From IMG/VR virus record IMGVR_UViG_3300039366_000282, positions 1 to 18,260 of that record: 18,260 bases of DNA, one strand, 5' to 3'. Under the pieces are notes generated by a model. It saw nothing but the letters and a program-made list of their open reading frames with translations, did not search any database and was not told the DNA's origin. Every line of letters starts with the position of its first letter. Position 1 is the stretch's first letter. A program made the translations under genes and the position numbers. Shown here in pieces: positions 1-16,287 of this stretch. The stretch is from a virus. Its lineage: Duplodnaviria; Heunggongvirae; Uroviricota; Caudoviricetes.

Positions 1-2631
1 TACAGCGGTATCTGGGACGGAACGTTTAAGCCAGCATACAGCAACAACATGGCCTGGTGTCTGTGGGATATGCTGACCCACCCGCGCTACGGCATGGGTA
101 AACGTCTTGGTGCGGCGGATGTGGACAAATGGGCGCTGTATGTCATCGGCCAGAATTGCGACCAGTCGGTGCCGGACGGTTTTGGTGGCACGGAGCCGCG
201 CATTTCCTGTAATGCCTACCTGACCACACAGCGTAAGGCGTGGGATGTTCTCAGTGATTTCTGCTCGGCGATGCGCTGTATGCCGGTATGGAACGGGCAG
301 ACGCTGACGTTCGTGCAGGACCGACCGTCGGATAAGGTGTGGACCTATAACCGCAGTAATGTGGTGATGCCGGATGATGGCGCGCCGTTCCGCTACAGCT
401 TCAGCGCCCTGAAGGACCGCCATAATGCCGTTGAGGTGAACTGGATTGACCCGGATAACGGCTGGGAGACGGCGACAGAGCTTGTGGAGGACACGCAGGC
501 CATTGCCCGTTACTGTCGTAACGTCACGAAGATGGATGCCTTTGGCTGTACCAGCCGGGGGCAGGCACACCGCGCCGGGCTGTGGCTGATTAAAACGGAG
601 CTACTGGAAACGCAGACCGTGGACTTCAGCGTGGGTGCAGAAGGGCTTCGCCATGTACCGGGGGATGTCATTGAAATCTGTGATGATGACTATGCGGGGA
701 TCAGCATCGGCGGGCGCGTGCTGGCGGTGAACAGCCAGACGCGGACACTGACGCTCGACCGTGAAATCACGCTGCCATCCTCCGGTACCACGCTGATAAG
801 CCTGGTTGACGGAAGTGGTAATCCGGTCAGCGTGGAGGTTCAGTCCGTCACCGACGGACTTAAGGTGAAAGTGAATCGGGTTCCTGACGGCGTTGCAGAA
901 TACAGTGTGTGGGGGCTGAAGTTGCCGACGTTGCGTCAGCGCCTGTTCCGCTGTGTGAGTATCCGTGAGAACGATGACGGCACGTATGCCATCACTGCCG
1001 TGCAGCATGTACCGGAAAAAGAAGCCATCGTGGATAACGGGGCGCACTTTGACGGCGACCAGAGCGGCACGGTGAATGGTGTCACGCCGCCAGCGGTGCA
1101 GCACCTGACCGCCGAAGTCACCGCAGACAGCGGGGAATACCAGGTGCTGGCGCGCTGGGATACGCCGAAGGTGGTGAAGGGCGTGAGCTTCCTGCTTCGC
1201 CTGACCGTGGCAGCGGATGACGGCAGTGAGCGGCTGGTCAGCACGGCCAGGACGACGGAAAACACATACCGCTTCAGGCAGCTGGCGCTGGGAAACTACA
1301 GGCTGACAGTCCGGGCGGCAAATGCGTGGGGACAGCAGGGCGATCCGGCATCGGTATCGTTCCGGATTGCCGCACCGGCAGCACCGTCGCGGATTGAGCT
1401 GACGCCGGGCTATTTTCAGATAACCGCCACGCCGCATCTTGCCGTTTATGACCCGACGGTACAGTTTGAGTTCTGGTTCTCGGAAAAGCGGGTTGCTGAT
1501 ATCAGACAGGTTGAAACCACAGCCCGCTATCTTGGCACGGCGCTGTACTGGATAGCCGCCAGTACCAATATCAAACCGGGTCGTGATTATTACTTTTATA
1601 TCCGCAGTGTGAACACCGTTGGCAAATCGGCATTCGTGGAGGCTGTCGGTCGGGCGAGCGATGATGCGGAAGGTTACCTGGATTTTTTCAAAGGCCAGAT
1701 AACCGAATCCCATCTCGGCAAGGAGCTGCTGGAAAAAGTCGAGCTGACGGAGGATAACGCCAGCAGACTGGAGGAGTTTTCGAAAGAGTGGAAAGACGCC
1801 AACGATAAATGGAATGCCATGTGGGGCGTCAAAATTGAGCAGACCGAAGACGGCAGGCATTATGTCGCGGGGCTTGGCCTCAGCATGGAGGATACGGAGG
1901 AAGGCAAACTGAGCCAGTTCCTGGTTGCCGCTAACCGTATCGCGTTTATTGATCCGTCTAATGGCAACACAAGACCAATGTTTGTTGGTCAGGGCGATCA
2001 GATATTCATGAACGACGTGTTCCTGAAACGCCTGACGGCTCCGACCATTACCAGCGGCGGTAATCCTCCGGCATTTTCCCTGACACCGGACGGGCGGCTG
2101 ACGGCGAAAAATGCCGATATCAGCGGTAACGTGAATGCGAACTCCGGGACGCTCAACAACGTCACGATTAACGAGAACTGTCGGGTTCTGGGAAAATTGT
2201 CCGCCAACCAGATTGAAGGCGATCTCGTTAAAACAGTGGGCAAAGCTTTCCCCCGGGACTCCCGTGCACCGGAGCGGTGGCCATCAGGGACCATTACCGT
2301 CAGGATTTATGACGATCAGCCGTTTGACCGGCAGATTGTTATTCCGGCGGTGGCATTCAGCGGCGCTAAACATGAGAGAGAGCATACTGATATTTACTCC
2401 TCATGCCGTCTGATAGTGCGGAAAAACGGTGCTGAAATTTATAACCGTACCGCGCTGGATAATACGCTGATTTACAGTGGCGTTATTGATATGCCTGCCG
2501 GTCACGGTCACATGACGCTGGAGTTTTCGGTGTCAGCATGGCTGGTAAATGACTGGTATCCCACTGCGAGCATCAGCGATTTGCTGGTTGTGGTGATGAA
2601 GAAAGCCACTGCAGGCATCACTATTAGCTGA
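1..2631 (+). CDS. J: Tail tip / host-specificity protein J, C-terminal ~877 aa (5' end lies upstream of the window)
   Basis: Frame 1 is open from nt 1 with no stop before the first Met at 49; the translated product matches the C-terminal two thirds of phage lambda J as recalled from memory; stop TGA at 2629-2631; gene order J-lom-stf follows. Confidence 0.9.
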
Positions 2632-2649
2632 ATTTTATAACCCAGATAC

Positions 2650-2676
2650 GGGCGCCAGAAATGGCGCCTTTTTTAT
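2650..2676 (+). terminator. Rho-independent terminator after J
   Basis: GGCGCCA-GAAA-TGGCGCC perfect 7-bp GC-rich stem followed by TTTTTTATT, starting 19 nt after the J stop. Confidence 0.55.
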
Positions 2677-2698
2677 TGCAGAAAAGCGAGAGGTAATT

Positions 2699-3298
2699 AT
2701 GCGTAAATTATGTGCTGTTATTCTGTCCGCAGTAGTCTGGCTGGTTGCCGCTGGTACGCCAGCGAGCGCAGCAGAGCATCAGTCCACACTAAGCGCCGGG
2801 TATCTTCAGACCCATACTGATATGCCAGGCAGCGATGACCTGAAGGGCATTAATGTGAAATACCGTTATGAATTTACGGACACGCTGGGGCTGGTGACGT
2901 CATTCAGTTATGCCAATGCCAAAGATGAGCAAAAAACGCATTACAGCGATACCCGCTGGCATGAAGATTCAGTGCGTAACCGCTGGTTCAGCATGATGGC
3001 GGGGCCATCTGTACGCGTGAATGAATGGTTCAGTGCTTATGCGATGGCGGGTATGGCTTACAGCCGTGTGTCGACCTTCTCCGGGGATTATCTCCGCGTA
3101 ACTGACAACAAGGGGAAAACGCACGATGTGCTGACCGGAAGTGATGACGGTCGCCACAGCAACACGTCTCTGGCGTGGGGGGCTGGCGTGCAGTTTAACC
3201 CGACCGAATCCGTGGCCATTGACCTTGCTTATGAAGGTTCCGGCAGTGGTGACTGGCGCACTGACGGTTTCATCGTGGGTGTCGGTTATAAATTCTGA
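2699..3298 (+). CDS. lom: Lom outer-membrane protein (Ail/Lom family beta-barrel)
   Basis: 199-aa ORF with N-terminal signal peptide (MRKLCAVILSAVVWLVAAGTPASAA), C-terminal ...GVGYKF typical of OMP barrels; matches lambda Lom from memory; RBS GAGAGG 7 nt upstream of ATG; position immediately downstream of J as in lambda. Confidence 0.85.
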   Translation: MRKLCAVILSAVVWLVAAGTPASAAEHQSTLSAGYLQTHTDMPGSDDLKGINVKYRYEFTDTLGLVTSFSYANAKDEQKTHYSDTRWHEDSVRNRWFSMMAGPSVRVNEWFSAYAMAGMAYSRVSTFSGDYLRVTDNKGKTHDVLTGSDDGRHSNTSLAWGAGVQFNPTESVAIDLAYEGSGSGDWRTDGFIVGVGYKF

Positions 3299-3325
3299 TT
3301 AGCCAGGTAACACAGTGTTATGACA

Positions 3326-3351
3326 GCCCGCCGGTTCAGGCGGGCTTTTTT
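3326..3351 (+). terminator. Rho-independent terminator after lom
   Basis: GCCCGCC-GGTTCA-GGCGGGC stem-loop followed by TTTTTT. Confidence 0.55.
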
Positions 3352-3362
3352 GTGGAGTGGAT

Positions 3363-5738
3363 ATGGCAGCAGTAAAAATCTCAGGTGTGCTGAAAGATGG
3401 TGCGGGAAAACCAATACAGAACTGCACTATTCAACTGAAGGCAAAGCGTAACAGCACCACGGTACTGGTGAACACGGTGGCCTCTGAAAATCCGGATGAA
3501 GCCGGGCGTTACAGCATGGATGTTGAGTATGGCCAGTACAGCGTTATCCTGCTTGTTGAAGGTTTTCCGCCTTCACATGCCGGAACCATTACCGTCTATG
3601 AAGGTTCCAGACCAGGTACGCTGAATGATTTTCTCGGTGCCATGACGGAAGATGATGTCATGCCGGAGGCATTGCGTCGTTTTGAGGAAATGGTGGAAGA
3701 AGCGGCACGCAACGCCGAAGCCGCCTCTCAGAGCGCAGCGGCGGCAAAGAAATCCGAAACTGCAGCGGCATCATCGAAGAACGCGGCGAAAACCTCAGAA
3801 ACGAATGCAGCTAATAGTGCACAGGCGGCAGCGACCTCACAGACTGCATCAGAAAACTCCGCGACAGCAGCCAAAAAATCAGAAACCAACGCGAAAAATA
3901 GCGAGACAGCCGCAAAGACGAGCGAAACCAACGCAAAGTCCAGCCAGACGGCAGCGAAAACCAGCGAAACGAATGCCAAAGCCAGTGAAACTGCGGCGAA
4001 AAGCAGTCAGGATGCAGCAGCCGAAAGCGAGAGCGCGGCAGCCGGTTCTGCGACTTCAGCTGCTGGATCAGCAACTGCTGCGGCTAACAGTCAGAAAGCA
4101 GCGAAGACGAGTGAAACTAACGCAAAGTCCAGCCAGACGGCAGCGAAGACCAGCGAAACGAATGCCAAAGCCAGCGAAACTGCGGCGAAAAGCAGTCAGG
4201 ATGCAGCAGCCGAAAGCGAGAGTGCTGCAGCTGGTTCTGCAAGCGCGGCTGCTGCTTCTGCCACTGCATCAGCTAACAGTCAAAAAGCAGCAAAAACCAG
4301 TGAAACCAACGCAAAGGTGAGCGAAACAGCGGCTGCGAACTCAGCGAAAGCATCGGCAGCAAGCCAGACGGCAGCTAAAGCAAGCGAAGATGCAGCCAGA
4401 GAGTACGCAAGCCAGGCTGCGGAGCCGTATAAATATGTCTTACAGCCGCTGCCTGATGTGTGGATACCATTTAACGATTCGCTGGATATGATTACGGGCT
4501 TTTCGCCGTCATATAAAAAGATTGTTATTGGTGATGATGAAATAACGATGCCTGGCGACAAGGTTGTTAAGTTTAAACGCGCATCGAAAGCAACCTATAT
4601 TAATAAATCTGGTGTGCTGACAGAGGCTGCCATTGACGAGCCACGGTTTGAACGTGATGGCCTGCTTATTGAGGGGCAAAGAACGAACTACATGCTCAAT
4701 TCGGAAAGCCCTGCCAGTTGGGGGCGATCGTCAAATATGGATGTTCCCGAAACCGGGACGGATAGTTTTGGTTTTACCTATGGAAAGTTTGTCTGTAACG
4801 ATTCTCTGATTGGGCAAACCTCAGCCATTAATATGGCATCAATTGCTGCAACAAAGTCAGTTGATGTCTCAGGCGATAATAAATACGTGACAACCTCATG
4901 TCGTTTTAAAACAGAACTGCAGGTAAGGTTGCGTATCCGATTTGATAAATATGACGGTAGCGCAACAACTTTTCTTGGTGATGTGTATATTGATACACAA
5001 ACGCTTGAAATTAATATGACAGGCGGCGCTGCCTCAAGGATTACAGCGAGAGTCAGAAAGGACGAAGTTATCGGATGGATTTTTGCAGAGGCAACAATTC
5101 AGGCAATTGATGGGGAGTTAAAAATAGGTTCTCAGATACAGTATTCTCCTAAGCAGGGCGGGGCAACCGTATCTGGTGACTATATTTATCTGGCCACCCC
5201 ACAAGTAGAAAATGGGCCTTGTGTATCATCTTTTATTATATCAGGAACGACGGCGGCGACCCGCGCAAGCGATATAGTCACAGTTCCCATTAAGAATAAT
5301 CTTTATAATCTTCCTTTTACGGTTCTTTGTGAGGTACATAAGAACTGGTATAAAACGCCAAATGCAGCACCGCGTGTTTTTGATACCGGCGGTCATCAAA
5401 CCGGAGCGGCTATTATTCTTGGCTTCGGTTCTTCAGCAGATTACGACGGATTTCCTTATTGCGATATTGGTGGGTCTAACAGACGGATAAACGAAAATGC
5501 ATCACTTGAAAAAATGGTTATGGGGATGCGTGTAAAGTCTGATCAGTCTACATGCGCAGTAAGTAACGGGCGTATATCCAGCGAAACAAAAACCACATGG
5601 TCCTGTATTCAGAACACCGCAATTATCCGTATTGGAGGCCAGACTACAGCCGGGTTACGTCATTTATTTGGTCATGTAAGGAATTTCAGAATATGGCACA
5701 AGGCATTGACTGATGCTCAGGTGGGGGAGTCAATCTAA
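3363..5738 (+). CDS. stf: Side tail fibre protein: lambda Stf-like N-terminus, heptad-repeat shaft, divergent AT-rich C-terminal domain
   Basis: N-terminus MAAVKISGVLKDGAGKPIQNCTIQLKAKRNSTTV... matches lambda Stf from memory; ATG at 3363 preferred over track GTG 3357 (GGAG 5 nt upstream); long Ala/Ser/Thr/Lys heptad region (KTSETNA/KSSQTAA...); C-terminal ~430 aa encoded by visibly more AT-rich DNA, ending in a LamG-like motif (..VRNFRIWHKALTDAQV..). Confidence 0.8.
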   Translation: MAAVKISGVLKDGAGKPIQNCTIQLKAKRNSTTVLVNTVASENPDEAGRYSMDVEYGQYSVILLVEGFPPSHAGTITVYEGSRPGTLNDFLGAMTEDDVMPEALRRFEEMVEEAARNAEAASQSAAAAKKSETAAASSKNAAKTSETNAANSAQAAATSQTASENSATAAKKSETNAKNSETAAKTSETNAKSSQTAAKTSETNAKASETAAKSSQDAAAESESAAAGSATSAAGSATAAANSQKAAKTSETNAKSSQTAAKTSETNAKASETAAKSSQDAAAESESAAAGSASAAAASATASANSQKAAKTSETNAKVSETAAANSAKASAASQTAAKASEDAAREYASQAAEPYKYVLQPLPDVWIPFNDSLDMITGFSPSYKKIVIGDDEITMPGDKVVKFKRASKATYINKSGVLTEAAIDEPRFERDGLLIEGQRTNYMLNSESPASWGRSSNMDVPETGTDSFGFTYGKFVCNDSLIGQTSAINMASIAATKSVDVSGDNKYVTTSCRFKTELQVRLRIRFDKYDGSATTFLGDVYIDTQTLEINMTGGAASRITARVRKDEVIGWIFAEATIQAIDGELKIGSQIQYSPKQGGATVSGDYIYLATPQVENGPCVSSFIISGTTAATRASDIVTVPIKNNLYNLPFTVLCEVHKNWYKTPNAAPRVFDTGGHQTGAAIILGFGSSADYDGFPYCDIGGSNRRINENASLEKMVMGMRVKSDQSTCAVSNGRISSETKTTWSCIQNTAIIRIGGQTTAGLRHLFGHVRNFRIWHKALTDAQVGESI
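3906..4283 (+). repeat. 189-bp (63-codon) near-identical in-frame tandem duplication inside the tail-fibre shaft
   Basis: acgcaaagtccagccagacggcagcgaa... occurs at 3931 and again at 4120 (period 189 bp) with only a few substitutions; partial further units flank it. Confidence 0.85.
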
Positions 5739-6019
5739 TGAAAGATTTAACACTCAAATTTCCCGACAGGGCCGACTTTTCGGCCTTTATGGAGAGCATT
5801 GGCTATTATGATGACGAGTTGATGCAGGATGATATTCTTATTGACGTGATAGGTAACGTGTACAAAGAAACCGGAGAACTGACTGAAGATGGCGAACCGG
5901 TATGTGTTAAGGAAGACGGATATTTTGTAAACGTGCGCATCATTAATGATTCGCAAATATCGTCATTATTCGATGAATACGTGGTTGCTGTTGAGCATCA
6001 ACTTCGTGGCTGGATGTGA
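5738..6019 (+). CDS. Hypothetical 93-aa acidic protein, translationally coupled to the tail-fibre gene
   Basis: ATG overlaps the stf stop (TAATG at 5736-5740); GGGGGAG 8 nt upstream; no family recognised. Confidence 0.5.
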   Translation: MKDLTLKFPDRADFSAFMESIGYYDDELMQDDILIDVIGNVYKETGELTEDGEPVCVKEDGYFVNVRIINDSQISSLFDEYVVAVEHQLRGWM

Positions 6020-6028
6020 GGAAGAAAA

Positions 6029-7069
6029 ATGGCTACATCGACAGTAATTCCTGATGACATCAAAACGCTAAAATCCGACGTTAGCAAATTAAAAAACGAT
6101 CAAGGAAGCTACGCAACAAAATTATATGTAGACAGCAAAGATGAAATCGTTGGTGACTGGTCTGCTTCATGGTATCAGCAGGTATTGCCAACTAGCGGAG
6201 CTATATTTGGGAGAAAACTCCGCTCAACTCACAGGACGGCAGGTGTTGAGGATGCGTATTGCGAACTATACCTCAAAAAATGGATAGACAGTCCAGGTAA
6301 CGCAATGGCGCGCCTTAACCTGAACGATAACGGGACAAACATTTGCTGGGACTTTACCAACCTTTATGGCGGTACGATGATTTTTCCCGGTGACAGCGGA
6401 TACCTCAAAATGGGTAACTGCCTTATGTCATACAGCAAGCGTGGAAGTAACGCGCTTATTAAATTTGATTACACCGACACATTACAGATCAAATATGCCA
6501 ATCATGGGTCAACCATGACATTAAACACACAGGGAACCGCTTATGCTGGTGTTACTGCTCAATTGTGGGGCAACACCAGCCGTCCTGTTGTTTATGAAGT
6601 CGGTGTTGATGGTGGCGCTTATATGTTCTATGCGCAGAAAAATACCGATAACACCTATATGTTAAGCGTTAATGGTGCATGTCATGCCACCGCATTTAAC
6701 CAGCATTCCGACCGGGATCTGAAAGACAACATTCAGGTGATCGATAATGCAACCGACCGCATCCGTAAAATGAACGGCTATACATACACGCTTAAAGAAA
6801 ACGGTATGCCCTATGCTGGTGTCATTGCACAGGAAGCTCTGGAAGCAATCCCAGAAGTTGTAGGTTCCGCAATGAAATATCAGGACGGTGCAAGCGGATC
6901 GGAAGGTGAAGAAGGTGAACGTTATTACACAGTAGATTATTCTGGTGTTACTGGCTTGCTTGTTCAGGTAGCCAGAGAGTCAGACGACAGAATAACAGCA
7001 CTGGAAGAAGAAAACGCAGAATTAAGACAAAGATTATCTGCAATTGAGGCGGCGCTTGCGTCTAAATAA
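6029..7069 (+). CDS. Tail fibre/tailspike-like protein with C-terminal intramolecular chaperone (peptidase S74-type) domain
   Basis: RBS GAGGAAG before ATG; C-terminal region contains ..NQHSDRDLKDNIQVIDNATDRIRKMNGYTYTLKENG..YAGVIAQEALEAIPEVV.. followed by a coiled-coil tail (ALEEENAELRQRLSAIEAA), matching the SD-x-R-LK-x-NI self-cleaving chaperone signature of phage fibres as recalled. Confidence 0.65.
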   Translation: MATSTVIPDDIKTLKSDVSKLKNDQGSYATKLYVDSKDEIVGDWSASWYQQVLPTSGAIFGRKLRSTHRTAGVEDAYCELYLKKWIDSPGNAMARLNLNDNGTNICWDFTNLYGGTMIFPGDSGYLKMGNCLMSYSKRGSNALIKFDYTDTLQIKYANHGSTMTLNTQGTAYAGVTAQLWGNTSRPVVYEVGVDGGAYMFYAQKNTDNTYMLSVNGACHATAFNQHSDRDLKDNIQVIDNATDRIRKMNGYTYTLKENGMPYAGVIAQEALEAIPEVVGSAMKYQDGASGSEGEEGERYYTVDYSGVTGLLVQVARESDDRITALEEENAELRQRLSAIEAALASK

Positions 7070-7075
7070 TATTAA

Positions 7076-7098
7076 GGGGCCGAGCGCCCCGTTTTATT
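7076..7098 (+). terminator. Rho-independent terminator after the fibre module
   Basis: GGGGC-CGAGC-GCCCC hairpin followed by GTTTTATT, 7 nt after the stop at 7069. Confidence 0.55.
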
Positions 7099-7111
7099 GG
7101 GTAGGATGAAA

Positions 7112-7399
7112 ATGGATATAACACCTTTTCTTCATGCGCTTTGTGCTGTGGCTGCGCAGGTACTGGTTGGTTTTTTTACCGGAAACTGGGCTTACGGGGC
7201 GATAGCCGGTTGTACATTCTTCATTGCGCGGGAACACACCCAGGCAGAATATCGCTGGATTGAAATGTTCGGGCATGGCAAGCGGATTAACATGCCGTGG
7301 TGGGGCGGTTTTGATCCACGTGCATGGGATGTGGCAAGCCTGATGGATTTTGCTGTGCCGGTGGTGGCGTGTCTGCTGATCTGGATGTTGATCCGTTAA
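7112..7399 (+). CDS. Small hydrophobic (predicted membrane) protein, ~96 aa, unknown function
   Basis: ORF with two strongly hydrophobic stretches (ALCAVAAQVLVGFFTGNWAYGAIAGCTFFIA and FAVPVVACLLIWMLI); AGGA 5 nt upstream of ATG 7112 (track start 7097 is TTG; 7106 is an alternative ATG). Confidence 0.45.
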   Translation: MDITPFLHALCAVAAQVLVGFFTGNWAYGAIAGCTFFIAREHTQAEYRWIEMFGHGKRINMPWWGGFDPRAWDVASLMDFAVPVVACLLIWMLIR

Positions 7400-7747
7400 A
7401 TATAAAAAGTAAAAAGCCGCAGTAACTTGTCATGATAGGATACTGCGGCTGGCTGGTTAACTTTCGATAGTGCGAGTATTGAATGATTTCCAGCCGTTAC
7501 CGATTTTATATAACTGCAGTGGAATTATTCAACACACAGGCAAAACGGAATAAGCTGAGAAAAAAGCGTGCTTACCCAATCTGGGGTAAATCACGTCTGA
7601 ATGACACCTGAAAACAGGTGGTGGCCTCAAGAAGGCTTGGAATATTCTTCTTTAATGTTATGTAATTTATTGATTTTTCGTGTACGATTTTAAGACATTT
7701 ATTCCAAGAAAAATTTTTAACTCTTTGATTTTTCGACTCTGTATCAT

Positions 7748-7809: not shown

Positions 7810-8087
7810 ATCATTCAACAAAATCAATCACTTACAAAGCATTTTTGATTTTGTCGTGCATAAATCCCTGCATTAAAATTCCTTTCTCTCGCTCAATTTT
7901 TCTTACTACTGATGCTGTTTTTTACCATTTTGCCGCGCGTCGGGCATCCACTTTTATGCTCTCGAGTTCACACTCTTAACAACAACTTAGCCATTCCCCC
8001 GTCTCTGATGACAAAACAGTTGAACTTCAATTGTTCCAAACGGATCCTGTGAAGATATATCAAAGGAAATGGATTGTTGGAGGATGG

Positions 8088-8924
8088 ATGAAAAGAAGTG
8101 AAATCAGGAAAGCACTGGAAGCATGGTTTGATGTGGAACGCTATGAGGCGATAGAGAAACTCACCTTACAGCAGTTTTATGTTGAGGTTGAGCGGCGCAT
8201 CTTGGCTTACAGAATGTTGTTGAGCCGGAACACCATACCTACCTTTAACCGATTAATGCTGGATGATTACCGCAACAAGATCCTCAGCGGTGAAATCTTT
8301 TTCAGTGGTGATACTGAGACCATTGGATATGAGCTTGCCAGAACCTATGCGGTAAACCCTACGACAAGAAGCCACGCGCAATTTTATGCGAAAACTCTGT
8401 CATTAACCGAAGCCACGCCTGAACTCTCTGGGTTAAGCCAGTCTGAATTTCTGTCCGAATATCTGAAAGAGACATCCCTTAATAATCTTTCACGCATTAC
8501 TGTCGATATTCATCTGGAAGAAGCATCAACCGAAGAGATCATTGAACATCTGAAAGTGCTGATCCCTCAATGGAAGAGGCAGCTTAAGATGACGTCTCCA
8601 GCTCCAAGAGAGTATCGTTTCGGCAAAAGCACGTTCAGAAAAATTATTGAATATCGTCTTATCCCGATGATGGACCTGATCTTCTGGGGAGAAGATAACG
8701 GCATTAAAATCCCGCTTTCACTGATTTCCTCGTTGCTTCATGAGGACAGCGACAACGATCGTGATGAAGGAATGCTCAAGGCAACAGATTACCCGTTAGC
8801 AATGGCTTTTCTGACGGATGCGAGCTATCTGAAATCGCTTGAAGATTACATGATGGAAAACAACCACTTGAAAGACTCCCCTGTTGAAAAGCATGTAGAA
8901 GACGACAGGAATAAGAAAAAATAA
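8088..8924 (+). CDS. Hypothetical protein (278 aa from ATG 8088)
   Basis: Long ORF; track start 8031 is TTG; GGAGGA lies just upstream of ATG 8088; no family recognised. Confidence 0.5.
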   Translation: MKRSEIRKALEAWFDVERYEAIEKLTLQQFYVEVERRILAYRMLLSRNTIPTFNRLMLDDYRNKILSGEIFFSGDTETIGYELARTYAVNPTTRSHAQFYAKTLSLTEATPELSGLSQSEFLSEYLKETSLNNLSRITVDIHLEEASTEEIIEHLKVLIPQWKRQLKMTSPAPREYRFGKSTFRKIIEYRLIPMMDLIFWGEDNGIKIPLSLISSLLHEDSDNDRDEGMLKATDYPLAMAFLTDASYLKSLEDYMMENNHLKDSPVEKHVEDDRNKKK

Positions 8925-9140
8925 GCCAAGTAAAAAGGGTTACGTTCGCTCCGTGCGAACGTGATCGCATCCAGTGTCAACCGTTATCTTTCCATCCGTG
9001 CCCCTTCGAATTTTTCAAAAAAAACTTATTTGAACGTCCCTAAATTGTCATAAGCAAAATCGCTATCATTGTTCACGTCGAAACAACATAGAGAAAAGCG
9101 AAATCTCATAGAGATTACTTACAATAATAGAGGACAGACA

Positions 9141-9359
9141 ATGAAAGAAAATAATGAAACCAGCGTAAAACGATTTATCCGCGTTCCTGATGTTTTAAAT
9201 CGAGTGGGATTTAGTCGCACGACTTTATATGAACGTATTAAGGAAGGAAACTTTCCAGACAGAGTAAAAATAGGGCCAAGATGTGTCGCCTTTGTCGAAA
9301 GTGAGATTGATGAATGGATTGAAGCGGCTATTCGAAACTCACGCCAGAACGCAGCATAA
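9141..9359 (+). CDS. AlpA-family phage/island transcriptional regulator (small HTH)
   Basis: 72-aa product ..FIRVPDVLNRVGFSRTTLYERIKEGNFPDRVKIGPRCVAFVESEIDEWIE.. matches the AlpA/prophage CP4-57 regulator pattern from memory; RBS AGAGGA before ATG 9141. Confidence 0.7.
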   Translation: MKENNETSVKRFIRVPDVLNRVGFSRTTLYERIKEGNFPDRVKIGPRCVAFVESEIDEWIEAAIRNSRQNAA

Positions 9360-9440
9360 AAACAGAAACAAGATCTCGTGTCGAACAGATATCTGTTCGC
9401 TCAGGGCATCTTATTATCCTAAACAATAATGGAGAAAAAT

Positions 9441-9731
9441 ATGAAGATAGAGCTTATTACGACAAAACAGTTTATTGAACAAGCCGAATGTTATTTCAGG
9501 CGCTATATGGACGGATTGCGGAGGAATGCACCAGATGATTTTTATTATTTTCTCAACAATAAATACAATATGAATGACATTATGGAAAGTATCATTAAAA
9601 AAACGAGATATCATTTTTACGATGACACAGAAGAAAACCAAAGGAATCGGATTTATGGAGAAGTAAGCCACTGTAAGGTAAAACAACACCTTCGTCAGCT
9701 TTGGATTATCTATAAGTGTGTATACCGCTAA
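9441..9731 (+). CDS. Hypothetical small protein (96 aa)
   Basis: ORF with GGAGA 5 nt upstream of ATG 9441 (track start 9429 also possible); AT-rich; no recognised family. Confidence 0.4.
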   Translation: MKIELITTKQFIEQAECYFRRYMDGLRRNAPDDFYYFLNNKYNMNDIMESIIKKTRYHFYDDTEENQRNRIYGEVSHCKVKQHLRQLWIIYKCVYR

Positions 9732-9783
9732 TATTTATACAAATATTTTGCTATTCCAATATTAAACTAAAGAGGAAATAAAA

Positions 9784-10080
9784 ATGAATACATTTAAAAA
9801 TAAAACTACTAAAATCTTTTATGTTGTGTCCTTGCATATCTATGCGGAGCTTTTTAACTCAAAGGATAAAACGACCAGTAATATGATTATAACGCATGTA
9901 ATGGATCATGAGTTTGTTTGTAAGCTAATCGATCTGGCGATGAGAAATGCTGAAAAGCATCTTCTGAAAAAAGCATGGAAAAAGAACGCGGCTGAAAAAC
10001 TATCTGAGGTGGATTTTAAAGAGGTTAGGCAGGCATTAGCCAAAATGCACTACACTGTTCTGGCGGAATCAATATGTTGA
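9784..10080 (+). CDS. Hypothetical small protein (98 aa)
   Basis: ORF preceded by strong RBS AAAGAGGAAATAAAA-ATG; no recognised family. Confidence 0.4.
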   Translation: MNTFKNKTTKIFYVVSLHIYAELFNSKDKTTSNMIITHVMDHEFVCKLIDLAMRNAEKHLLKKAWKKNAAEKLSEVDFKEVRQALAKMHYTVLAESIC

Positions 10081-10152
10081 TATGTTCTGGTGTCTATCTG
10101 CCCCTTCTTGGGGCTGATAACAAATATTATTTTTCTATCCAAGGAGCAAAAA

Positions 10153-10395
10153 ATGACTGATGAATTTCATGTGATGTATATGTATAAAAAAATCCAAGCG
10201 GAAGCCGTAACTACTGACATCAAAACACTTGAACAGCTTTTGAAAAAGTTCAGGAGCGTTGTCAACGAACGTCGTGAAGAATACTATCAGGAGATTGGTG
10301 AGAAAAAAGCGCATAAGTTGAAAATGAAAAGATTACAAAGAATGCTTGAGAAAATGGCGTGTGACCGAGTCTCGCCAGAAGATCTCATTGACTGA
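10153..10395 (+). CDS. Hypothetical small charged/helical protein (80 aa)
   Basis: RBS AAGGAG 6 nt upstream of ATG 10153 (track ORF starts earlier at 10090 without an RBS); product lysine/glutamate-rich. Confidence 0.4.
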   Translation: MTDEFHVMYMYKKIQAEAVTTDIKTLEQLLKKFRSVVNERREEYYQEIGEKKAHKLKMKRLQRMLEKMACDRVSPEDLID

Positions 10396-10443
10396 TAAGT
10401 GTTCTGTATAATAACTTATCTATATAAAAACATGGAGGTGGTT

Positions 10444-10833
10444 ATGGGCTGGGAGCTTCACATAGTAAGAACGGAACATTGGTTCGATAGCGCAAGTGTT
10501 CCAATCAGTAGTGAAGAATGGCTCCAGCTTGTTAATGATGATAAAGAACTATCCATAGATAACAAGAACGGTGATTTTTTCGCCATATGGAGTGGTCAAA
10601 GTGAACTCGATGAACCTTGGCTTGACTGGAGTGATGGAAGAATTTCAACAAAACATCCTGACGAAGCCCTTTACTGTAAAATGTTGCAGATAGCTGAGAA
10701 GCTACATGCTGTAGTCGTTGATGAGGATGATCACAAATATTCGCTACCAAGTGACCTGATGAATCCTTCATGGGCGAATTCATCACTGACTGATAAAAAA
10801 CAAACTTTATGGAAAAGGTTGTTTTCAAAATAG
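10444..10833 (+). CDS. Hypothetical protein (129 aa, Trp/Asp-rich)
   Basis: RBS GGAGGTGG before ATG 10444 (MGWELHIVRTEHW...); track ORF starts at 10399. Confidence 0.45.
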   Translation: MGWELHIVRTEHWFDSASVPISSEEWLQLVNDDKELSIDNKNGDFFAIWSGQSELDEPWLDWSDGRISTKHPDEALYCKMLQIAEKLHAVVVDEDDHKYSLPSDLMNPSWANSSLTDKKQTLWKRLFSK

Positions 10834-11139
10834 TTTTGTCAAGTATTCAGGGAATAGCAATGGCACGCCGAATTGATCTTCATGAAATTGTTAACGCTCT
10901 CAACGGGAGCTTTGTTAGTCGAAACAACGACTTTAGAAGATACGGGGCTATTGGGCAGTTAAAATCATTGGCTATCTGTATTAGCTCAGACTTGATCTGG
11001 TGGTTTTCACTGGTAGCACACTATCAAATCTGACAGTCTGCTATGAGCGAGGAGCGGAAGTTAGTACCTCCGATGCTATAGCGCAGCGTTCTTAATTATG
11101 TAAAAATATTCTACCATTCAAGTAAAGTAAGTGAAAACA

Positions 11140-12057
11140 ATGGAATTTAAACTTGATCTAAAATCCAATGCTTTAGATAGTTTTAATGAAGCCATCAAAA
11201 AATTCCAGCAAGGAGAAAATGGAGATTATAAAGCTTTCAAGTTTGCTATACTACATTTGTCTCATTGTTTTGAGTTGACGTTGAAAATGTATATTCAAAC
11301 ATTAGACGAAAACTTGATTTTTTCAAAATGCTACAGAGCAGTAATAGAGCGTGCCAAAAGTGACAAAGTCAATCTTATTGAAGCTTTTTATAAAATGGAG
11401 GCTGAAGAATTCGACTTTGAAGAACTTATTAAAGGACATAAAAATCCTCATACTATTACTTTGGATCAAGCAATATCGATAGCTACACATGAAAAGTGTA
11501 GCATAACCTCAGTGGACTTAGTTGATAAAGAGTTACTAGATGATATCGCTTGGATGAAAGATCTTAGAAATTCAATTGAGCATTACGAATTCTCGTTTAC
11601 TATTAAATATGTTCGTCTGGCAATGGGGCGTTTGGTCAGAGGGTTGGCTGAGTTCTCTGATATATTTGGTTTATACGATCTAGATAAAGAAGTTTCTAAG
11701 GAAATATCTAATTCCTATAATATACTTTCTGACGAATATGAGCATAATGTTCATGAAGGTTATCTTGATGTAGCTGATGCTAGAAAAGCAGCATTTCTTG
11801 GGGTTAGACCAAAGTTTTTTGAGTTAGTTAATTGGAAAGAATATATCTGCGATTACTGTGGTCATGAGACAATGATTCAAAATAACGATTCTACTTCAGG
11901 ATATCGTTGTACGTATTGCGGTGCCGAAGACTCAGGCTCAATTGAAGTCACATGTGATGTTTGTGGTGCTGAATGGCCTGAAGAGGAAATGAGTTCTTGG
12001 CTTGGGGAGGGGACTAACACTTGTCCTGACTGTAGAGATATTAGCAACAAACCATGA
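11140..12057 (+). CDS. HEPN-like (R-x4-H) domain protein with C-terminal four-CxxC zinc-ribbon region; candidate abortive-infection/RNase effector
   Basis: 305 aa from ATG 11140 (track GTG 11131 alternative); helical N-terminal region ending in ..WMKDLRNSIEHYEF.. (R-N-x3-H at nt 11566-11583); C-terminus carries CDYC, CTYC, CDVC, CPDC pairs; RBS weak. Confidence 0.55.
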   Translation: MEFKLDLKSNALDSFNEAIKKFQQGENGDYKAFKFAILHLSHCFELTLKMYIQTLDENLIFSKCYRAVIERAKSDKVNLIEAFYKMEAEEFDFEELIKGHKNPHTITLDQAISIATHEKCSITSVDLVDKELLDDIAWMKDLRNSIEHYEFSFTIKYVRLAMGRLVRGLAEFSDIFGLYDLDKEVSKEISNSYNILSDEYEHNVHEGYLDVADARKAAFLGVRPKFFELVNWKEYICDYCGHETMIQNNDSTSGYRCTYCGAEDSGSIEVTCDVCGAEWPEEEMSSWLGEGTNTCPDCRDISNKP

Positions 12058-12326
12058 CTAAGATTAATCCTTGATTGAAGATGCATTCTTGTCCGCCTCT
12101 CATGTTTTATAATGTATAATGCTTCTGGCATTATAGCGTGAGAGGCGGAAGATATTGTTAACCGAATTGGCAAGCCTAATTTATAACATTATTGCTAATA
12201 TGGAGGAATAGATTTCTGTTCATCCGCTTACATGGAGTATATACTGTAAACCTTACATCCTTTGAATAAACGGGATGGGAGGCGTCCATCCTGTTTAAGA
12301 TCTCCATCATAAAGATTAAAAATTTC

Positions 12327-12851
12327 TTATTCTTCTGAAGTAAGCATCTTCTCCTGATGGGGGTGATACTTATATGCATAATTAAAGAGGGTCAGATCTA
12401 GTTCAAACGTTTCTCGCATACCATCCATCGTTACGGACGTATTCAGTAATCCACGACGGGCCAGAGATTCTACACCCGGTTCAGGATCATCAAGCCTATT
12501 CATTTGTCCCCATGTCATAACAGAACCACCATGCGTCACAAAGTGCATGACTACTTCTTTTTCTCTTCCAGTCAGAGAATTATAAAGCGTTGCCAGTCGT
12601 TTTTCTGCAACTGCCTCTCCCTTGCGGGTAATAATTCGCAGATATAATCCTCCCGCAATAATCTTTACAACCGGAAAAATAATAACAAAAGAAAACAGAG
12701 TCAGTACATAATCGCGAAGAATAAGATAACAGGTAACTCCTGCGATTCCGGAGACAAATATTGCGATGTTAATGCTGAAGTCTTTCTCCGAATAAACACG
12801 ATCAAACATTTTTTCAAGAAATTCTGTCACGATTTCATTCCTTGTTAACAC
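12327..12851 (-). CDS. Hypothetical membrane protein (two predicted TM helices near N-terminus, soluble C-terminal domain)
   Basis: Minus-strand ORF; hydrophobic segments FSINIAIFVSGIAGVTCYLIL and LTLFSFVIIFPVVKIIAGGLYL; start ambiguous (GTG 12851 or ATG 12809, neither with a clear SD). Confidence 0.45.
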   Translation of the reverse strand: MLTRNEIVTEFLEKMFDRVYSEKDFSINIAIFVSGIAGVTCYLILRDYVLTLFSFVIIFPVVKIIAGGLYLRIITRKGEAVAEKRLATLYNSLTGREKEVVMHFVTHGGSVMTWGQMNRLDDPEPGVESLARRGLLNTSVTMDGMRETFELDLTLFNYAYKYHPHQEKMLTSEE

Positions 12852-13283
12852 TAAAGATGCTCGAGTGGGTATGAATATACCGCAATAGTGCGGGAGGATT
12901 TCATTAGTGTCCCATCAAAATCTGGCTTGAACTGGCTATTGAGTCGCTAATCATTATAAATTTTAGCTGTCAATACTACCATAATAAATAGCAGCATTCT
13001 CAAGAGTTGTGGCGAACGCAACAAAACTCTCCCCAACAACCCGCTTGTAAAGATGCTTTTATACTTCTAACGTCCGCTCTTGGCACGGAGTTGCCTGTCA
13101 AATTAGGTTTAGATCTGTGCGATAGCTGTGTCAGGTCAAATCTGAGCTAATAGAGCTATCGATACCGGCGTCACTTCGATGAGGTTTTCTCTCATAGCCG
13201 AGAGCGACACCCTCTCTTCGCACGTAGGATTTTCTTTGGGAGAGAACAAAAACCGCCAAATTTGGTTGACGGCTTTATTGTGA

Positions 13284-13688
13284 TCAGAGCGCGAAGTCTT
13301 CCAGCGTTTTACCAGCTTCGATAGCAGCAGCGATCGCTTTAGGAGTACGGCCTTGACCTGTCCAAGTCTGCTCATTACCATTTTCATCTGTATATTTGTA
13401 TTTAGCAGGACGAGGAGCACGAGTTGATTTGGCTTTAGGCTGGGATGAACTAACAGCAGCAAGGAGTTCTGCCGGATCAATGCCATCTTCTAACAGTTTC
13501 TGGCGGAAGGCTTCCAGTTTAGCCTGACGTTCTTCTTGTTCTTTACGGGCTGAATTTTCTTCCTCACGGCGATCTTCAACGACAGCAGAGAGCTTTTCCA
13601 GCATCTCTTCCAGAGTTGTCAGATCTGTTTCACGAGCATGTGCGCGAAGTGTACGAATATTGTTCAGTGCCTTGAGAGCTTCACTCAT
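13284..13688 (-). CDS. H-NS family nucleoid-associated protein (island-encoded H-NS/StpA paralog)
   Basis: 134-aa product [28 protein letters not shown].. with C-terminal DNA-binding motif [12 protein letters not shown] and ..[12 protein letters not shown]..; matches E. coli H-NS/StpA from memory. Confidence 0.85.
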
Positions 13689-13844
13689 AGTATGTCATCC
13701 GGTGTTTTAAAATGGGCGATTAATAAAAATAATGCTTACGGTGATGTTGGAAAAATCAAAAAAACAGTCAGTAAATAATATAGTAAACATTATCGTTTAA
13801 GCAATCTAATACATCTCATTTCACACGAATAACATAGGAGTGCT

Positions 13845-14324
13845 TTAAAGAGACATTTTCCTGCGCTTCTGGCTTGATGGCTCGAACTCTGACGAGATGC
13901 GAGATAGCTGGTCAAGACTGTATTCAATTGAACGCTGGAACTCAACAGCGGCTTCTGTGCGTTGTTTTATGACCAAGGCTACTATTTCTTCATCACTCTT
14001 TTCTGAAATAGCCTTACGGTATAACACGCGTTCGTTAAATAAATCGAGATTTCCTGATGATTTGGCTGATGTGTTAGCTTTTGAACTGCTGATAGGATTT
14101 AGCTCATCAATAAAGTATTCAATAAGCGATTCTCTCTTTTTATCCAGCCTGCGAAGTTCGGTATGTGCGGACTTAAATTTCTGAGCTTTTATCAATGGAA
14201 TATCATCAGAACGCAGTTTGCGATATTCATTTCTGTATTCTTCTATCGGAATATGGTTTTTTAGTTCTTTGACTGTATTTACGTATTCGATTAAATCACT
14301 GTTGTCTGTTTTTACTTTTCTCAT
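13845..14324 (-). CDS. Hypothetical protein (159 aa, charged/helical)
   Basis: Minus-strand ORF with GAGG 9 nt upstream of ATG 14324; no recognised family. Confidence 0.45.
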   Translation of the reverse strand: MRKVKTDNSDLIEYVNTVKELKNHIPIEEYRNEYRKLRSDDIPLIKAQKFKSAHTELRRLDKKRESLIEYFIDELNPISSSKANTSAKSSGNLDLFNERVLYRKAISEKSDEEIVALVIKQRTEAAVEFQRSIEYSLDQLSRISSEFEPSSQKRRKMSL

Positions 14325-14600
14325 AAGAAATACCTCGTAGATAAAATAGTTGATATATTTATATTACGAGATATGGTGCAGGTGTCAAATTTATGGGGCT
14401 GGGCGCTATTTTTGTATTTTACTTTTAGCTACTGTTTCTTTTGAGAAGAACCGAGAGTTAAATGTGCCGTTCTTAGTCAGTATCTTAGCGTCCACTAATA
14501 ATTTTAACCGTTCTTCATCGGTTCTCTTAGCCGCTAATTTTTTCACCTTTTTTGTCAGATCTTCAATATCTATTATTTACATCCTTATCTTTTAAGTTGT

Positions 14601-15401: not shown

Positions 15402-15428
15402 TGTTATTTCCTTGTTGTTGTTATTTTA

Positions 15429-16163: not shown

Positions 16164-16197
16164 ATTATTCTCTCTTATTATTTTTGTTATATATATT

Positions 16198-16226
16198 TTA
16201 ATACTATGCAAAAAAGTGAAAGTCAA
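16198..16226 (-). promoter_or_regulatory. Putative sigma70 promoter for the minus-strand operon (TTGACT-17-TATTAA)
   Basis: On the minus strand, -35 TTGACT (16221-16226) and -10 TATTAA (16198-16203) are separated by 17 nt, about 35 nt upstream of ATG 16163. Confidence 0.4.
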
Positions 16227-16287
16227 TAGTAGAACTATAAATAAAATAGGAAGTATATTCTTATGACAATGTTATATGTTAAAAAAA

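What the first reader, a model, noticed from the sequence alone, without database searches (positions are those of the whole stretch)
5736..7069. Extra fibre module: TAATG-coupled small ORF and a second fibre-like protein with a self-cleaving chaperone signature
The 93-aa ORF starts on the stop codon of stf (TAATG), implying translational coupling. The next gene ends in SDRDLKDNI...coiled coil, the signature of the intramolecular chaperone domain that is autoproteolytically removed from trimeric fibres and tailspikes. Two receptor-binding proteins in one lambdoid tail locus suggest a branched or dual-specificity fibre. In lambda the gene after stf is tfa, so the 93-aa protein may be a non-canonical assembly factor or adaptor.
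Basis: partly seen in the sequence, partly recalled or inferred. Interest (0 to 1): 0.45.

Follow-up and report, generated by a model that had tools for sequence, protein, structure and literature searches.

The report
Two-part side tail fibre cassette
The prophage's side tail fibre gene is followed by a small, uncharacterised partner gene and by a second, self-cleaving fibre gene; this three-gene host-recognition cassette is common and shared by many coliphage families, and only the small protein's role is unknown.

Summary
The next gene (6029-7069, 346 aa) carries a Peptidase_S74 intramolecular-chaperone domain (E 4.8e-14) with the Ser227/Lys232 motif.

The module is not rare. It lies in 484 of 5,426 complete E. 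coli genomes and is 98% identical in phages Tritos, 2G7b, HannyBb and PhiR63_1. Its distal part is 94% identical in the virulent Nonagvirus ESCO3.

The same gene order (lectin-headed fibre, ~92-aa protein, S74 fibre) occurs in Drexlerviridae, Queuovirinae and T5-like phages. In IrisVonRoten the outer genes are Gp22 and Gp24, published as proximal and distal fibre. The small gene also occurs in Dhillonvirus, and in Vequintavirus, where no distal fibre follows.

The small protein always abuts a fibre gene with a lectin-like C-terminal head, whether or not a distal fibre follows. It is therefore tied to stf, not to the S74 fibre. It has no Pfam or NCBIfam family, no gene fusions and no informative fold match.

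Most likely it is an assembly partner of the lectin head. The 346-aa protein would be an optional distal fibre that docks through a conserved N-terminal peptide (TVIPxDIxxLK). Whether the small protein acts as a chaperone or as a joint subunit is unresolved.

This is an ordinary module containing one uncharacterised component.

The parts
3357..5738 (+). stf, the proximal side tail fibre (793-aa ORF from GTG; probable start ATG 3363). It has a lambda-type N-terminal attachment domain, an Ala/Ser/Thr-rich repeat shaft and a lectin-like C-terminal head.
   Evidence: PF08400 phage_tail_N covers aa 5-134 (E 5.9e-67). phrog_1419 matches full length. PDB 9e7m 'tail fiber protein' matches aa 5-97 (E 1.4e-49). 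NF048003 GTA_spike_fiber covers aa 437-637 (49 bits, cut-off 36).
5256..5735 (+). The last 160 aa of Stf, a lectin-like head ending ...RHLFGHVRNFRIWHKALTDAQVGESI. This segment always travels with the small ORF.
   Evidence: There is a sub-threshold Laminin_G_3 match (E 0.0066) at about aa 737-789. tblastn finds the head in 205 phage records with the same taxon spread as the small protein, which is in 183 records. Homologous heads are described as 'galectin-like' in IrisVonRoten Gp22 (PMC11990801) and as 'lectin-like head D69', seen by cryo-EM at the fibre end in EmilHeitz (PMC12143355).
5736..5740 (+). TAATG stop/start overlap between stf and orf93.
   Evidence: Read directly from the sequence. 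The overlap is TAATG or ATGA in all 195 related loci in which the upstream fibre end could be read.
5738..6019 (+). orf93, a 93-aa acidic protein (pI about 4.05, 10.7 kDa). It is an uncharacterised partner of the lectin-headed fibre. Conserved motifs are L-x-D-x-I-G, G-Y-F-V-N-x-R and P-x-R-x-W-A.
   Evidence: phrog_1361 E 1.3e-45. No Pfam or NCBIfam family matches. Only 52 representative clusters exist among 1.84 billion proteins; family-length matches are stand-alone proteins of about 60-150 aa, and two long proteins match only short repeated stretches. The AF2 model has pLDDT 86.9 and an alpha/beta fold. No informative fold match was found. dN/dS is about 0.24.
6029..7069 (+). The 346-aa distal fibre precursor, made of an N-terminal docking peptide, a receptor-binding body and the S74 intramolecular chaperone.
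   Evidence: phrog_4563 'tail fiber protein' matches full length (E 3.1e-220). Its aa 92-342 also match the C-terminal tips of 1210-1567-aa single-chain fibres (phrog_6578, phrog_5668). PF13884 matches.
6029..6103 (+). Conserved N-terminal peptide MATSTVIPDDIKTLKSDVSKLKNDQ, the inferred docking element. Distal fibres with unrelated bodies share it.
   Evidence: The same N-terminus (M-x-T-x-T-V-I-P-x-D-I-x-x-L-K) heads the 346-aa and 234-aa prophage alleles, swan01 (224 aa), JenP1 and ESCO3 (351 aa), and, less exactly, IrisVonRoten Gp24 (574 aa) and FFH1 (580 aa). A more divergent form (TNIPKDITNLK) is in VogelGryff (388 aa).
6707..7066 (+). Intramolecular chaperone (Peptidase_S74) domain, aa 227-346. 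The predicted autocleavage is N-terminal of Ser227 (codon 6707-6709), with Lys232 (6722-6724) as the dyad partner. A C-terminal coiled coil follows.
   Evidence: PF13884 covers aa 227-278, starting at profile position 1. The domain aligns with the chaperone domain of PDB 6f45. Assigning the Ser/Lys dyad rests on published work on endosialidase and T5 pb1 chaperone domains, recalled from my own knowledge.
7076..7098 (+). Terminator-like hairpin (GGGGCCGAGCGCCCC followed by a T-run) that closes the stf-orf93-fibre unit.

Best explanation
The locus encodes a two-part side tail fibre.

Stf is the proximal fibre. Its lambda-type N-terminus binds the tail tip, and its C-terminus carries a lectin-like head.

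orf93 is made in step with Stf through the TAATG overlap. It is a dedicated partner of that head. Most likely it is an assembly or folding factor that fills the genomic slot lambda gives to tfa. It may or may not stay on the fibre.

The 346-aa protein is an optional, exchangeable distal fibre. Its C-terminal S74 domain would drive trimer folding and then cut itself off before Ser227, leaving a mature protein of about 226 aa. Its conserved N-terminal ~15-25 residues (TVIPxDIxxLK, then a coiled coil) would dock it onto the head region of Stf, with or without orf93.

The finished fibre would offer two binding parts: the lectin heads at the joint and the distal tip. Both probably bind surface glycans such as O-antigen.

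Shown here: gene anatomy, domain assignments, strict synteny and the modular exchange pattern. Inferred: physical attachment, cleavage, the role of orf93 and the receptors.
For: S74 domain and motif.

Stf N-terminal attachment domain.

Lectin-like head: plus published models and cryo-EM of homologous heads (PMC11990801, PMC12143355).

The same three-gene order occurs in four phage groups:
- lambdoid phages (Tritos);
- Queuovirinae: Nonagvirus ESCO3 and JenP1 and Seuratvirus VogelGryff;
- Drexlerviridae (swan01);
- T5-like phages (IrisVonRoten; FFH1).
Every third gene tested by Pfam carries PF13884 (IrisVonRoten, VogelGryff, ESCO3, swan01 and the 234-aa prophage allele; swan01 scores 21.8 bits, just under the 22-bit cut-off), and the third genes share the N-terminal peptide.

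orf93 homologues follow a lectin-type fibre end, with overlapping stop and start, in 195 of 210 loci; the other 15 were too short or did not fit the motif pattern.

Homologues persist where no distal fibre exists: phage 21, PhiR40_1, JeffSchatz, and metagenomic loci L008 and L009. They keep the conserved motifs there, except that the Vequintavirus form lacks the C-terminal R-x-W.

In Vequintavirus the head and the small gene are present or absent together: 35 of 120 genomes have both. One published alternative allele of that fibre, in MaxBurger, ends in an S74 chaperone instead (PMC12143355). This fits the small protein supplying the folding help that S74 supplies elsewhere.

Head, small protein and distal body recombine independently (identity table).

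The unit lies between terminator-like hairpins.
Against: No experiment or complex model places orf93 on or off the fibre.

The published IrisVonRoten Gp22 trimer was modelled with high confidence without the orf93 homologue Gp23. A chaperone is therefore not needed for prediction, though that says little about folding in the cell.

Small-protein clades track presence or absence of the distal fibre: 78/78 and 27/27 with a distal fibre, 45/46 and 45/45 without. This could instead point to a direct orf93-distal fibre contact.

How the distal fibre attaches is assumed in the literature, not demonstrated.
Confidence: 0.5

Rival explanations
1. orf93 is a structural joint subunit, a 'knee' adaptor. 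It stays bound to the lectin heads in the virion and forms the socket that accepts the N-terminal strands of the distal fibre. Its role would resemble that of T4 gp35 between the proximal and distal half-fibres.
For: The docking peptide is only about 15-25 aa before the coiled coil. That is too short to be a folded domain, so it needs a partner surface. orf93 is predicted to have an exposed antiparallel beta-sheet.

The unit 'small gene plus first 45-75 nt of the distal gene' is inherited together, while the head upstream and the binding body downstream are swapped.

Small-protein clade predicts distal-fibre presence in 195 of 196 evaluable loci, even though heads can be 91% identical across that divide.

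Translational coupling would give 1:1 stoichiometry with Stf.
Against: orf93 homologues with all conserved motifs intact persist in the lineages without a distal fibre, apart from the Vequintavirus form, which has lost the C-terminal motif. The family's core function therefore cannot be docking.

Adjacent genes in closely related prophages are co-inherited anyway, so the clade correlation may be linkage alone.

No extra density next to the lectin head was reported for EmilHeitz. However, the maps were 7-9 Å, and that phage has a divergent small protein and no distal fibre.
Confidence: 0.3
2. The 346-aa protein is an independent short fibre. It attaches somewhere other than Stf (tail tip, J or collar), so the locus encodes two separate fibres rather than one composite fibre.
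For: No attachment has been shown. Some phages carry separate long and short fibres (PMC11990801).
Against: The protein has no recognisable tail-attachment domain. Only a short conserved peptide precedes the coiled coil.

That peptide is conserved across phage families whose tail tips are unrelated (lambdoid, T1-like, 9g-like, T5-like). The only things those loci share are the lectin head and the small protein.

The gene was found only directly downstream of the head and small-gene pair.
Confidence: 0.1
3. orf93 has nothing to do with fibres. It would be a moron, anti-defence or regulatory gene that happens to sit in the tail operon.
For: It has no family, no informative fold, and is small and acidic.
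Against: It overlaps the stop codon of a lectin-headed fibre gene wherever that end could be read, in temperate and virulent phages of several unrelated lineages. In Vequintavirus it is gained and lost together with the head. Morons are normally flanked by their own promoter and terminator, and none lies between stf and orf93.
Confidence: 0.05
4. orf93 and the 346-aa ORF are joined by TGA readthrough into a 443-aa fusion. They are in the same frame, separated only by TGA and three codons.
For: The next gene is in the same frame, with a 9- or 12-nt spacer, in all 196 evaluable loci.
Against: The stop is TAA in many lineages. Some spacers hold a second in-frame stop (TAAGGATAGCAGATG in 37 loci; TGAGGGAGATAAATG in one). 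The spacer is a Shine-Dalgarno sequence. No fused homologue exists among 1.84 billion proteins. The same-frame rule also holds where the next gene is the unrelated membrane protein.
Confidence: 0.02

Closest known systems
Lateral tail fibre locus of T5-like phage IrisVonRoten (Bas32): Gp22, Gp23 and Gp24 (PMC11990801)
   Same: The gene order is identical: a fibre with a lectin or galectin-like C-terminal head, a ~92-aa protein overlapping its stop, then 9 nt and a distal fibre with the TVIPxDIxxLK N-terminus and an S74 chaperone domain. The heads are 77% identical over the last 160 aa and the small proteins 39%.
   Different: Attachment to the tail differs: a T5 collar-type N-terminus there, a lambda PF08400 N-terminus here. 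The distal fibre there is a 574-aa 'T-shaped' protein with two binding domains; here it is a 346-aa protein with a different body (22% identity). The paper models Gp22 and Gp24 separately and does not discuss Gp23.
Lambda stf-tfa (side tail fibre plus Tfa assembly chaperone)
   Same: The Stf N-terminal attachment domain is the same (PF08400; PDB 9e7m match). A small gene immediately follows stf in the late operon.
   Different: The Stf C-terminus here is a lectin-like head rather than the lambda Stf tip. orf93 has no similarity to Tfa or Caudo_TAP. A third fibre gene is present.
Branched lateral fibres LtfA/LtfB of T5-like phages DT57C and DT571/2 (PMC4728585, PMC10713586)
   Same: Two fibre proteins are encoded. 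The second is attached through the first, each can hold a receptor-binding part, and S74 chaperone domains are used.
   Different: In DT57C both proteins end in S74. No small gene between them is mentioned in the passages read, and the locus itself was not inspected. LtfB docks through a 45-aa N-terminus related to phiEco32 gp15 onto an internal region of LtfA. Here the proximal fibre ends in a lectin head, a small protein intervenes, and the docking peptide is different.
Peptidase_S74 intramolecular chaperone domains (K1F endosialidase, T5 pb1 L-shaped fibre)
   Same: The C-terminal domain scores above the Pfam threshold. It has the S-D-x-x-x-K motif at its start and a trailing helix.
   Different: The carrier is a very short fibre (about 226 aa when mature) that lacks its own tail-attachment domain.
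Vequintavirus fibre with lectin-like head D69 (EmilHeitz RBP_10; PMC12143355)
   Same: It has a homologous head (about 52% identity) followed by an orf93 homologue. [quoted passage not shown]
   Different: The carrier is a myovirus baseplate fibre of 1479 aa. No distal fibre gene follows. The small protein is longer (110 aa) and lacks the C-terminal R-x-W motif.

Membership tests
Peptidase_S74 / intramolecular chaperone of fibres and tailspikes (346-aa protein) | Match to the family profile above the curated threshold | tested here: met
   PF13884 scores 52.8 bits against a cut-off of 22, E 4.8e-14, over aa 227-278 and profile positions 1-57 of 58.
Peptidase_S74 / intramolecular chaperone of fibres and tailspikes (346-aa protein) | Catalytic Ser at the domain start with Lys five residues downstream (S-x4-K) | tested here: met
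   S227-D-R-D-L-K232 sits at profile position 1. The assignment of the dyad comes from published endosialidase work, recalled from my own knowledge.
Peptidase_S74 / intramolecular chaperone of fibres and tailspikes (346-aa protein) | C-terminal position after a fibre body, followed by a helical coiled-coil tail | tested here: met
   The domain is the last 120 aa, and the heptad-rich helix spans about aa 322-346. The preceding body matches the fibre tips of phrog_6578 and phrog_5668.
Peptidase_S74 / intramolecular chaperone of fibres and tailspikes (346-aa protein) | Autoproteolytic release of the domain after trimerisation | not testable with these tools
   This needs SDS-PAGE or mass spectrometry of wild type against an S227A mutant.
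Lambda-type side tail fibre (Stf) | N-terminal tail-attachment domain | tested here: met
   PF08400 E 5.9e-67. PDB 9e7m tail fibre protein matches aa 5-97 with E 1.4e-49.
Lambda-type side tail fibre (Stf) | Position directly after J and lom in a lambdoid late operon | tested here: met
   J fragment at 49-2631, Ail/Lom at 2699-3298 (PF06316, E 1.5e-127), then stf. The order is the same in Tritos and in E. coli prophages.
Tfa / Caudo_TAP tail fibre assembly chaperones (orf93) | Sequence membership in a Tfa, gpU, gp38 or Caudo_TAP family | tested here: not met
   No Pfam or NCBIfam hit for orf93. Across 22 family members scanned down to E = 1, no family matched more than one member. orf93 may work like a Tfa, but it is not a member.
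Tfa / Caudo_TAP tail fibre assembly chaperones (orf93) | Gene immediately downstream of the fibre gene whose C-terminus it serves, and co-varying with that C-terminal type | tested here: met
   It overlaps the stop of a lectin-headed fibre gene in all 195 loci in which that end could be read, out of 210. The head and the small gene are gained and lost together in Vequintavirus. Their taxon distributions are near-identical.
IrisVonRoten-type two-part lateral fibre (proximal lectin-headed fibre plus distal S74 fibre) | Homologous head, homologous small protein and shared distal-fibre N-terminus, in the same order | tested here: met
IrisVonRoten-type two-part lateral fibre (proximal lectin-headed fibre plus distal S74 fibre) | Physical attachment of the distal fibre to the proximal fibre | not testable with these tools
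   Both structure-prediction jobs were single-chain, and no complex could be modelled. In the literature the attachment is assumed, not shown.
Concanavalin/LamG-type lectin domain (Stf C-terminal head) | Profile match above threshold | tested here: inconclusive
   Laminin_G_3 scores E 0.0066 and 17 bits against a cut-off of 27.6, covering only the last ~50 residues. The related NF048003 GTA_spike_fiber domain is met upstream of it at aa 437-637 (49 bits, cut-off 36). The head itself was not modelled here.
DT57C-type branched LtfA/LtfB fibre | LtfB-type N-terminus related to phiEco32 gp15, docking on an internal LtfA region | not tested
   No sequence comparison was run. From the paper's description the design differs.

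The most novel reading that the evidence does not exclude
The ~92-aa protein founds a new class of fibre-joint protein. It stays on the lectin heads and forms a universal socket for a short N-terminal plug (TVIPxDIxxLK). Unrelated distal fibres could then be swapped onto lambda-like, T1-like, 9g-like and T5-like phages alike, giving a natural, portable 'plug-and-socket' system for changing host range.
Probability: 0.3. Interest if true: 0.6.

Novelty: new member of a known kind. Interest (0 to 1): 0.35.

Why it matters
Side and lateral tail fibres decide which O-antigen or capsule types a coliphage can get past. This cassette lies in about 9% of complete E. coli genomes (484 of 5,426) and in several phage families used as models and for therapy.

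If the docking rule is confirmed, it would give a simple recipe for retargeting lambda-based delivery particles and lytic siphoviruses. The rule has three parts: a lectin head, the small protein and the N-terminal plug. Only the distal gene would need exchanging.

The small protein is the one component nobody has examined, although it is strictly conserved next to the head. As a genome feature, however, this instance is ordinary: near-identical copies are already in public phage and prophage records.

Tried and rejected
1. Stop-codon readthrough joining orf93 to the fibre. Rejected because the stop type varies, some spacers hold a second in-frame stop, and no fused homologues exist.

2. Function of orf93 from homology. 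Pfam, NCBIfam and PDB sequence searches gave nothing; PHROGs gave only unknown-function families. An exhaustive HMMER search of 1.84 billion representatives found 52 clusters, with no fusion at family length.

4. Columns in the small protein that separate lineages with and without a distal fibre. None was found.

5. Searching the big protein database with the 40-aa docking peptide. It returned only fragments.

6. The search for related loci with the divergent alignment failed because no stretch was conserved enough. Single-protein queries were used instead.

7. Virion proteomics in the literature. The AKFV33 study analysed only four large gel bands, so it says nothing about the small protein. 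The Salmonella T5-like fibre-swap paper concerns pb3/pb4 and is not relevant.

8. The lambda-delivery engineering preprint says nothing on this stf type.

Full report
**What is in the window.** Bases 1-7400 are the end of a lambdoid late operon. In order they hold a J fragment (49-2631), lom (2699-3298; PF06316, E 1.5e-127), stf (3357-5738), a 93-aa ORF (5738-6019), a 346-aa ORF (6029-7069), a terminator-like hairpin (7076-7090) and a small membrane-protein gene. The stop of stf and the start of the 93-aa ORF overlap as TAATG (5736-5740), with GGGGGAG 8 nt upstream. The 346-aa ORF starts 9 nt after the TGA of the small ORF, behind GAGGAAG. Terminator-like hairpins flank stf-orf93-fibre at 3325-3346 and 7076-7090; a weaker pattern match lies inside the third gene at 6437-6457.

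Pfam places Peptidase_S74 at aa 227-278 of the 346-aa protein (E 4.8e-14; 52.8 bits against a cut-off of 22). The domain starts exactly at S227 of HSDRDLKDNI, with K232 five residues on. That is the Ser/Lys arrangement known from endosialidase and T5 pb1 chaperone domains (my own knowledge). A heptad-rich helix ends the protein. PHROGs calls the whole protein a tail fibre (phrog_4563, E 3.1e-220). Its aa 92-342 also match the C-terminal tips of 1210-1567-aa single-chain fibres, so it is a fibre tip encoded as a separate gene.

**The 93-aa ORF is a real gene.**
- phrog_1361 matches it end to end (E 1.3e-45).
- Homologues reach down to about 33% identity.
- Median dN/dS is about 0.24 among 22 close variants.

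**How common it is.** Window 5300-7450 is 98% identical to phages Tritos, PhiR63_1, HannyBb and 2G7b. From the stf head to most of the third gene it is 94% identical to the virulent Nonagvirus ESCO3. In E. coli, 484 of 5,426 complete genomes hold at least 80% of it. This is one of the standard stf alleles of E. coli lambdoid prophages, and it has moved between temperate and virulent phages.

**The cassette across phage families.** tblastn with the small protein finds 183 phage records:
- lambdoid phages, including classical phage 21;
- Drexlerviridae;
- Dhillonvirus;
- Queuovirinae;
- T5-like phages;
- Vequintavirus.

The last 160 aa of Stf find 205 records with the same taxon spread. I inspected annotated loci from each group except Dhillonvirus, two metagenomic contigs and 209 IMG/VR loci.

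In 195 of the 210 IMG/VR-scan positions a fibre end of the type ...RHLFGHxRNxRxWHKxLTDxQ... could be read next to the small ORF, and in each it overlaps the start as TAATG or ATGA. The remaining 15 were too short or did not fit the pattern used. That C-terminus gives a sub-threshold Laminin_G_3 match (E 0.0066). Just upstream is an above-threshold GTA head-spike-fibre domain. The homologous region has been described as a 'galectin-like' head in IrisVonRoten Gp22 (PMC11990801). It has also been described as 'lectin-like head D69', confirmed by low-resolution cryo-EM at the distal end of an EmilHeitz fibre (PMC12143355).

**The third gene is optional and modular.** Where present, it begins 9 or 12 nt after the small ORF with M-x-T-x-T-V-I-P-x-D-I-x-x-L-K. 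Every such gene tested by Pfam carries PF13884 (swan01 scores 21.8 bits, just under the 22-bit cut-off). The bodies, however, are unrelated:
- 346 aa here;
- a 234-aa allele in other prophages;
- 224 aa in swan01;
- 351 aa in JenP1 and ESCO3;
- 388 aa in VogelGryff;
- 574-586 aa 'T-shaped' fibres in IrisVonRoten-type phages.

It is absent in phage 21, PhiR40_1, ev243-type prophages, JeffSchatz-type Vequintaviruses and two metagenomic loci. In all of these the small gene is retained.

In Vequintavirus the head and the small gene are present together in 35 of 120 genomes and absent together in the rest. One published alternative allele of that fibre, in MaxBurger, ends in an S74 domain.

An identity table shows that head, small protein and distal body recombine independently. 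PhiR40_1 and VogelGryff have heads 90-91% identical to this one, but small proteins only 42% identical.

**What the small protein is.** It has no Pfam or NCBIfam family and no PDB relative. Only 52 representative clusters exist among 1.84 billion proteins. All family-length matches are stand-alone proteins of about 60-150 aa, so there is no fusion to suggest a partner.

**Mechanism.** Three observations bear on the small protein's role:
1. It is always coupled to the lectin head.
2. It persists without a distal fibre.
3. In Vequintavirus the head plus small gene alternates with an S74 ending on the same fibre.

From these, the function common to the whole family must concern the head. The most economical reading is an assembly or folding partner in the slot lambda gives to tfa, although it is not a member of any Tfa family.

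The 346-aa protein is best read as a plug-in distal fibre. The S74 domain would fold the trimer and cut itself off before Ser227. The short conserved N-terminus would dock on the head region. That peptide is the only feature the otherwise unrelated distal fibres share, and the head plus small protein are the only features the recipient loci share.

In phage 21 and EmilHeitz the lectin head is itself the fibre end. It is therefore probably a binding domain in its own right, and the composite fibre would carry two binding parts.

A real alternative is that the small protein stays on the fibre as the socket for the docking peptide. Two observations favour it. First, the small gene and the first 45-75 nt of the distal gene are inherited as a unit. 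Second, small-protein clade predicts distal-fibre presence: 78/78 and 27/27 with, 45/46 and 45/45 without. Simple linkage can explain both.

I could not model the complex, because both structure-prediction jobs were single-chain. The literature I could search has not modelled or discussed the small protein. The BASEL authors modelled Gp22 and Gp24 separately.

**Rejected idea.** The small ORF and the next gene are in the same frame in all 196 evaluable loci, which suggested readthrough. It fails because stops are TGA or TAA, some spacers contain a second in-frame stop, the rule also holds when the next gene is the unrelated membrane protein, and no fused protein exists.

**Comparison with known systems.**
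- Closest is the IrisVonRoten Gp22-Gp23-Gp24 locus. It has the same order, a homologous head and small protein and the same docking peptide, but a different tail-attachment end and distal body.
- Lambda stf-tfa shares only the N-terminal domain and the 'small gene after stf' logic.
- The DT57C LtfA/LtfB branched fibre is a different design: both proteins end in S74 and use a phiEco32 gp15-type dock, and the passages read mention no small gene.

**Verdict.** The S74 call and the overlap are confirmed. The 'dual fibre' idea is reasonable and has published precedent. The small protein belongs with stf rather than with the S74 fibre. The module is common and already present in public phage records, so novelty is low. 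The exception is the small protein family, whose role as chaperone or joint subunit is open and easy to test.

Noticed in passing
window 6017-6031, and the same junction in loci L013-L223: In all 196 evaluable related loci, the gene after the small ORF starts 9 or 12 nt past its stop and in the same reading frame. This holds even where that gene is the unrelated membrane protein. It looks like a conserved Shine-Dalgarno and recombination joint rather than readthrough.
   Followed up: yes
window 7112-7399 (+): A 95-aa protein (phrog_1443) sits just behind the terminator-like hairpin; its phage 21 homologue is annotated with two transmembrane segments. It follows the fibre module in every lambdoid version inspected, with or without a distal fibre (phage 21 CPT_21_24, PhiR40_1, Tritos). 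It may be an independently expressed moron; its function is unknown.
   Followed up: partly
window 8000-18260: This stretch is not tail genes but a separate island. It holds DUF6387 (8031-8924), an AlpA regulator (9069-9359), two H-NS-like genes (10090-10395 on + and 13284-13688 on -), DUF4756 (13845-14324 on -) and a RepL/HTH_36-like protein (15429-16226 on -). No tRNA gene was found in the window.
   Followed up: partly
L004 4020-5060 (phage PhiR47_1); L025, L057, L081: In the isolated phage PhiR47_1 the distal fibre gene is split by an in-frame TAG inside the chaperone domain. Several prophage copies are truncated. The distal fibre therefore seems dispensable, or decays, in some lineages.
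   Followed up: no
window 3357-5738, about aa 105-350 of Stf: The Stf shaft is an Ala/Ser/Thr-rich repeat (…AAKTSETNAKSSQTAAK…) with an internal duplication of roughly 75 aa. It throws up long spurious ORFs in other frames and on the opposite strand (for example 3652-4320 on + and 3728-4074 on -).
   Followed up: no
GenBank records MG0656xx ('Campylobacter phage') and OR84xxxx ('Listeria phage', 'Salmonella phage' fragments): Records labelled as Campylobacter or Listeria phages carry coliphage fibre modules that are 76-100% identical to coliphage sequences. They look like mislabelled or contaminated entries.
   Followed up: no
L002 (Nonagvirus ESCO3) against window 5300-6997: A temperate lambdoid prophage and a virulent queuosine-modified Nonagvirus share 94% nucleotide identity across the fibre head, small gene and distal fibre. 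This indicates recent horizontal exchange of the cassette between lifestyles.
   Followed up: partly
loci L013-L223: Small-protein sequence type predicts whether a distal fibre gene follows (195 of 196 evaluable loci), although the upstream heads can be 91% identical across that divide. It is unclear whether this reflects function or only linkage.
   Followed up: partly
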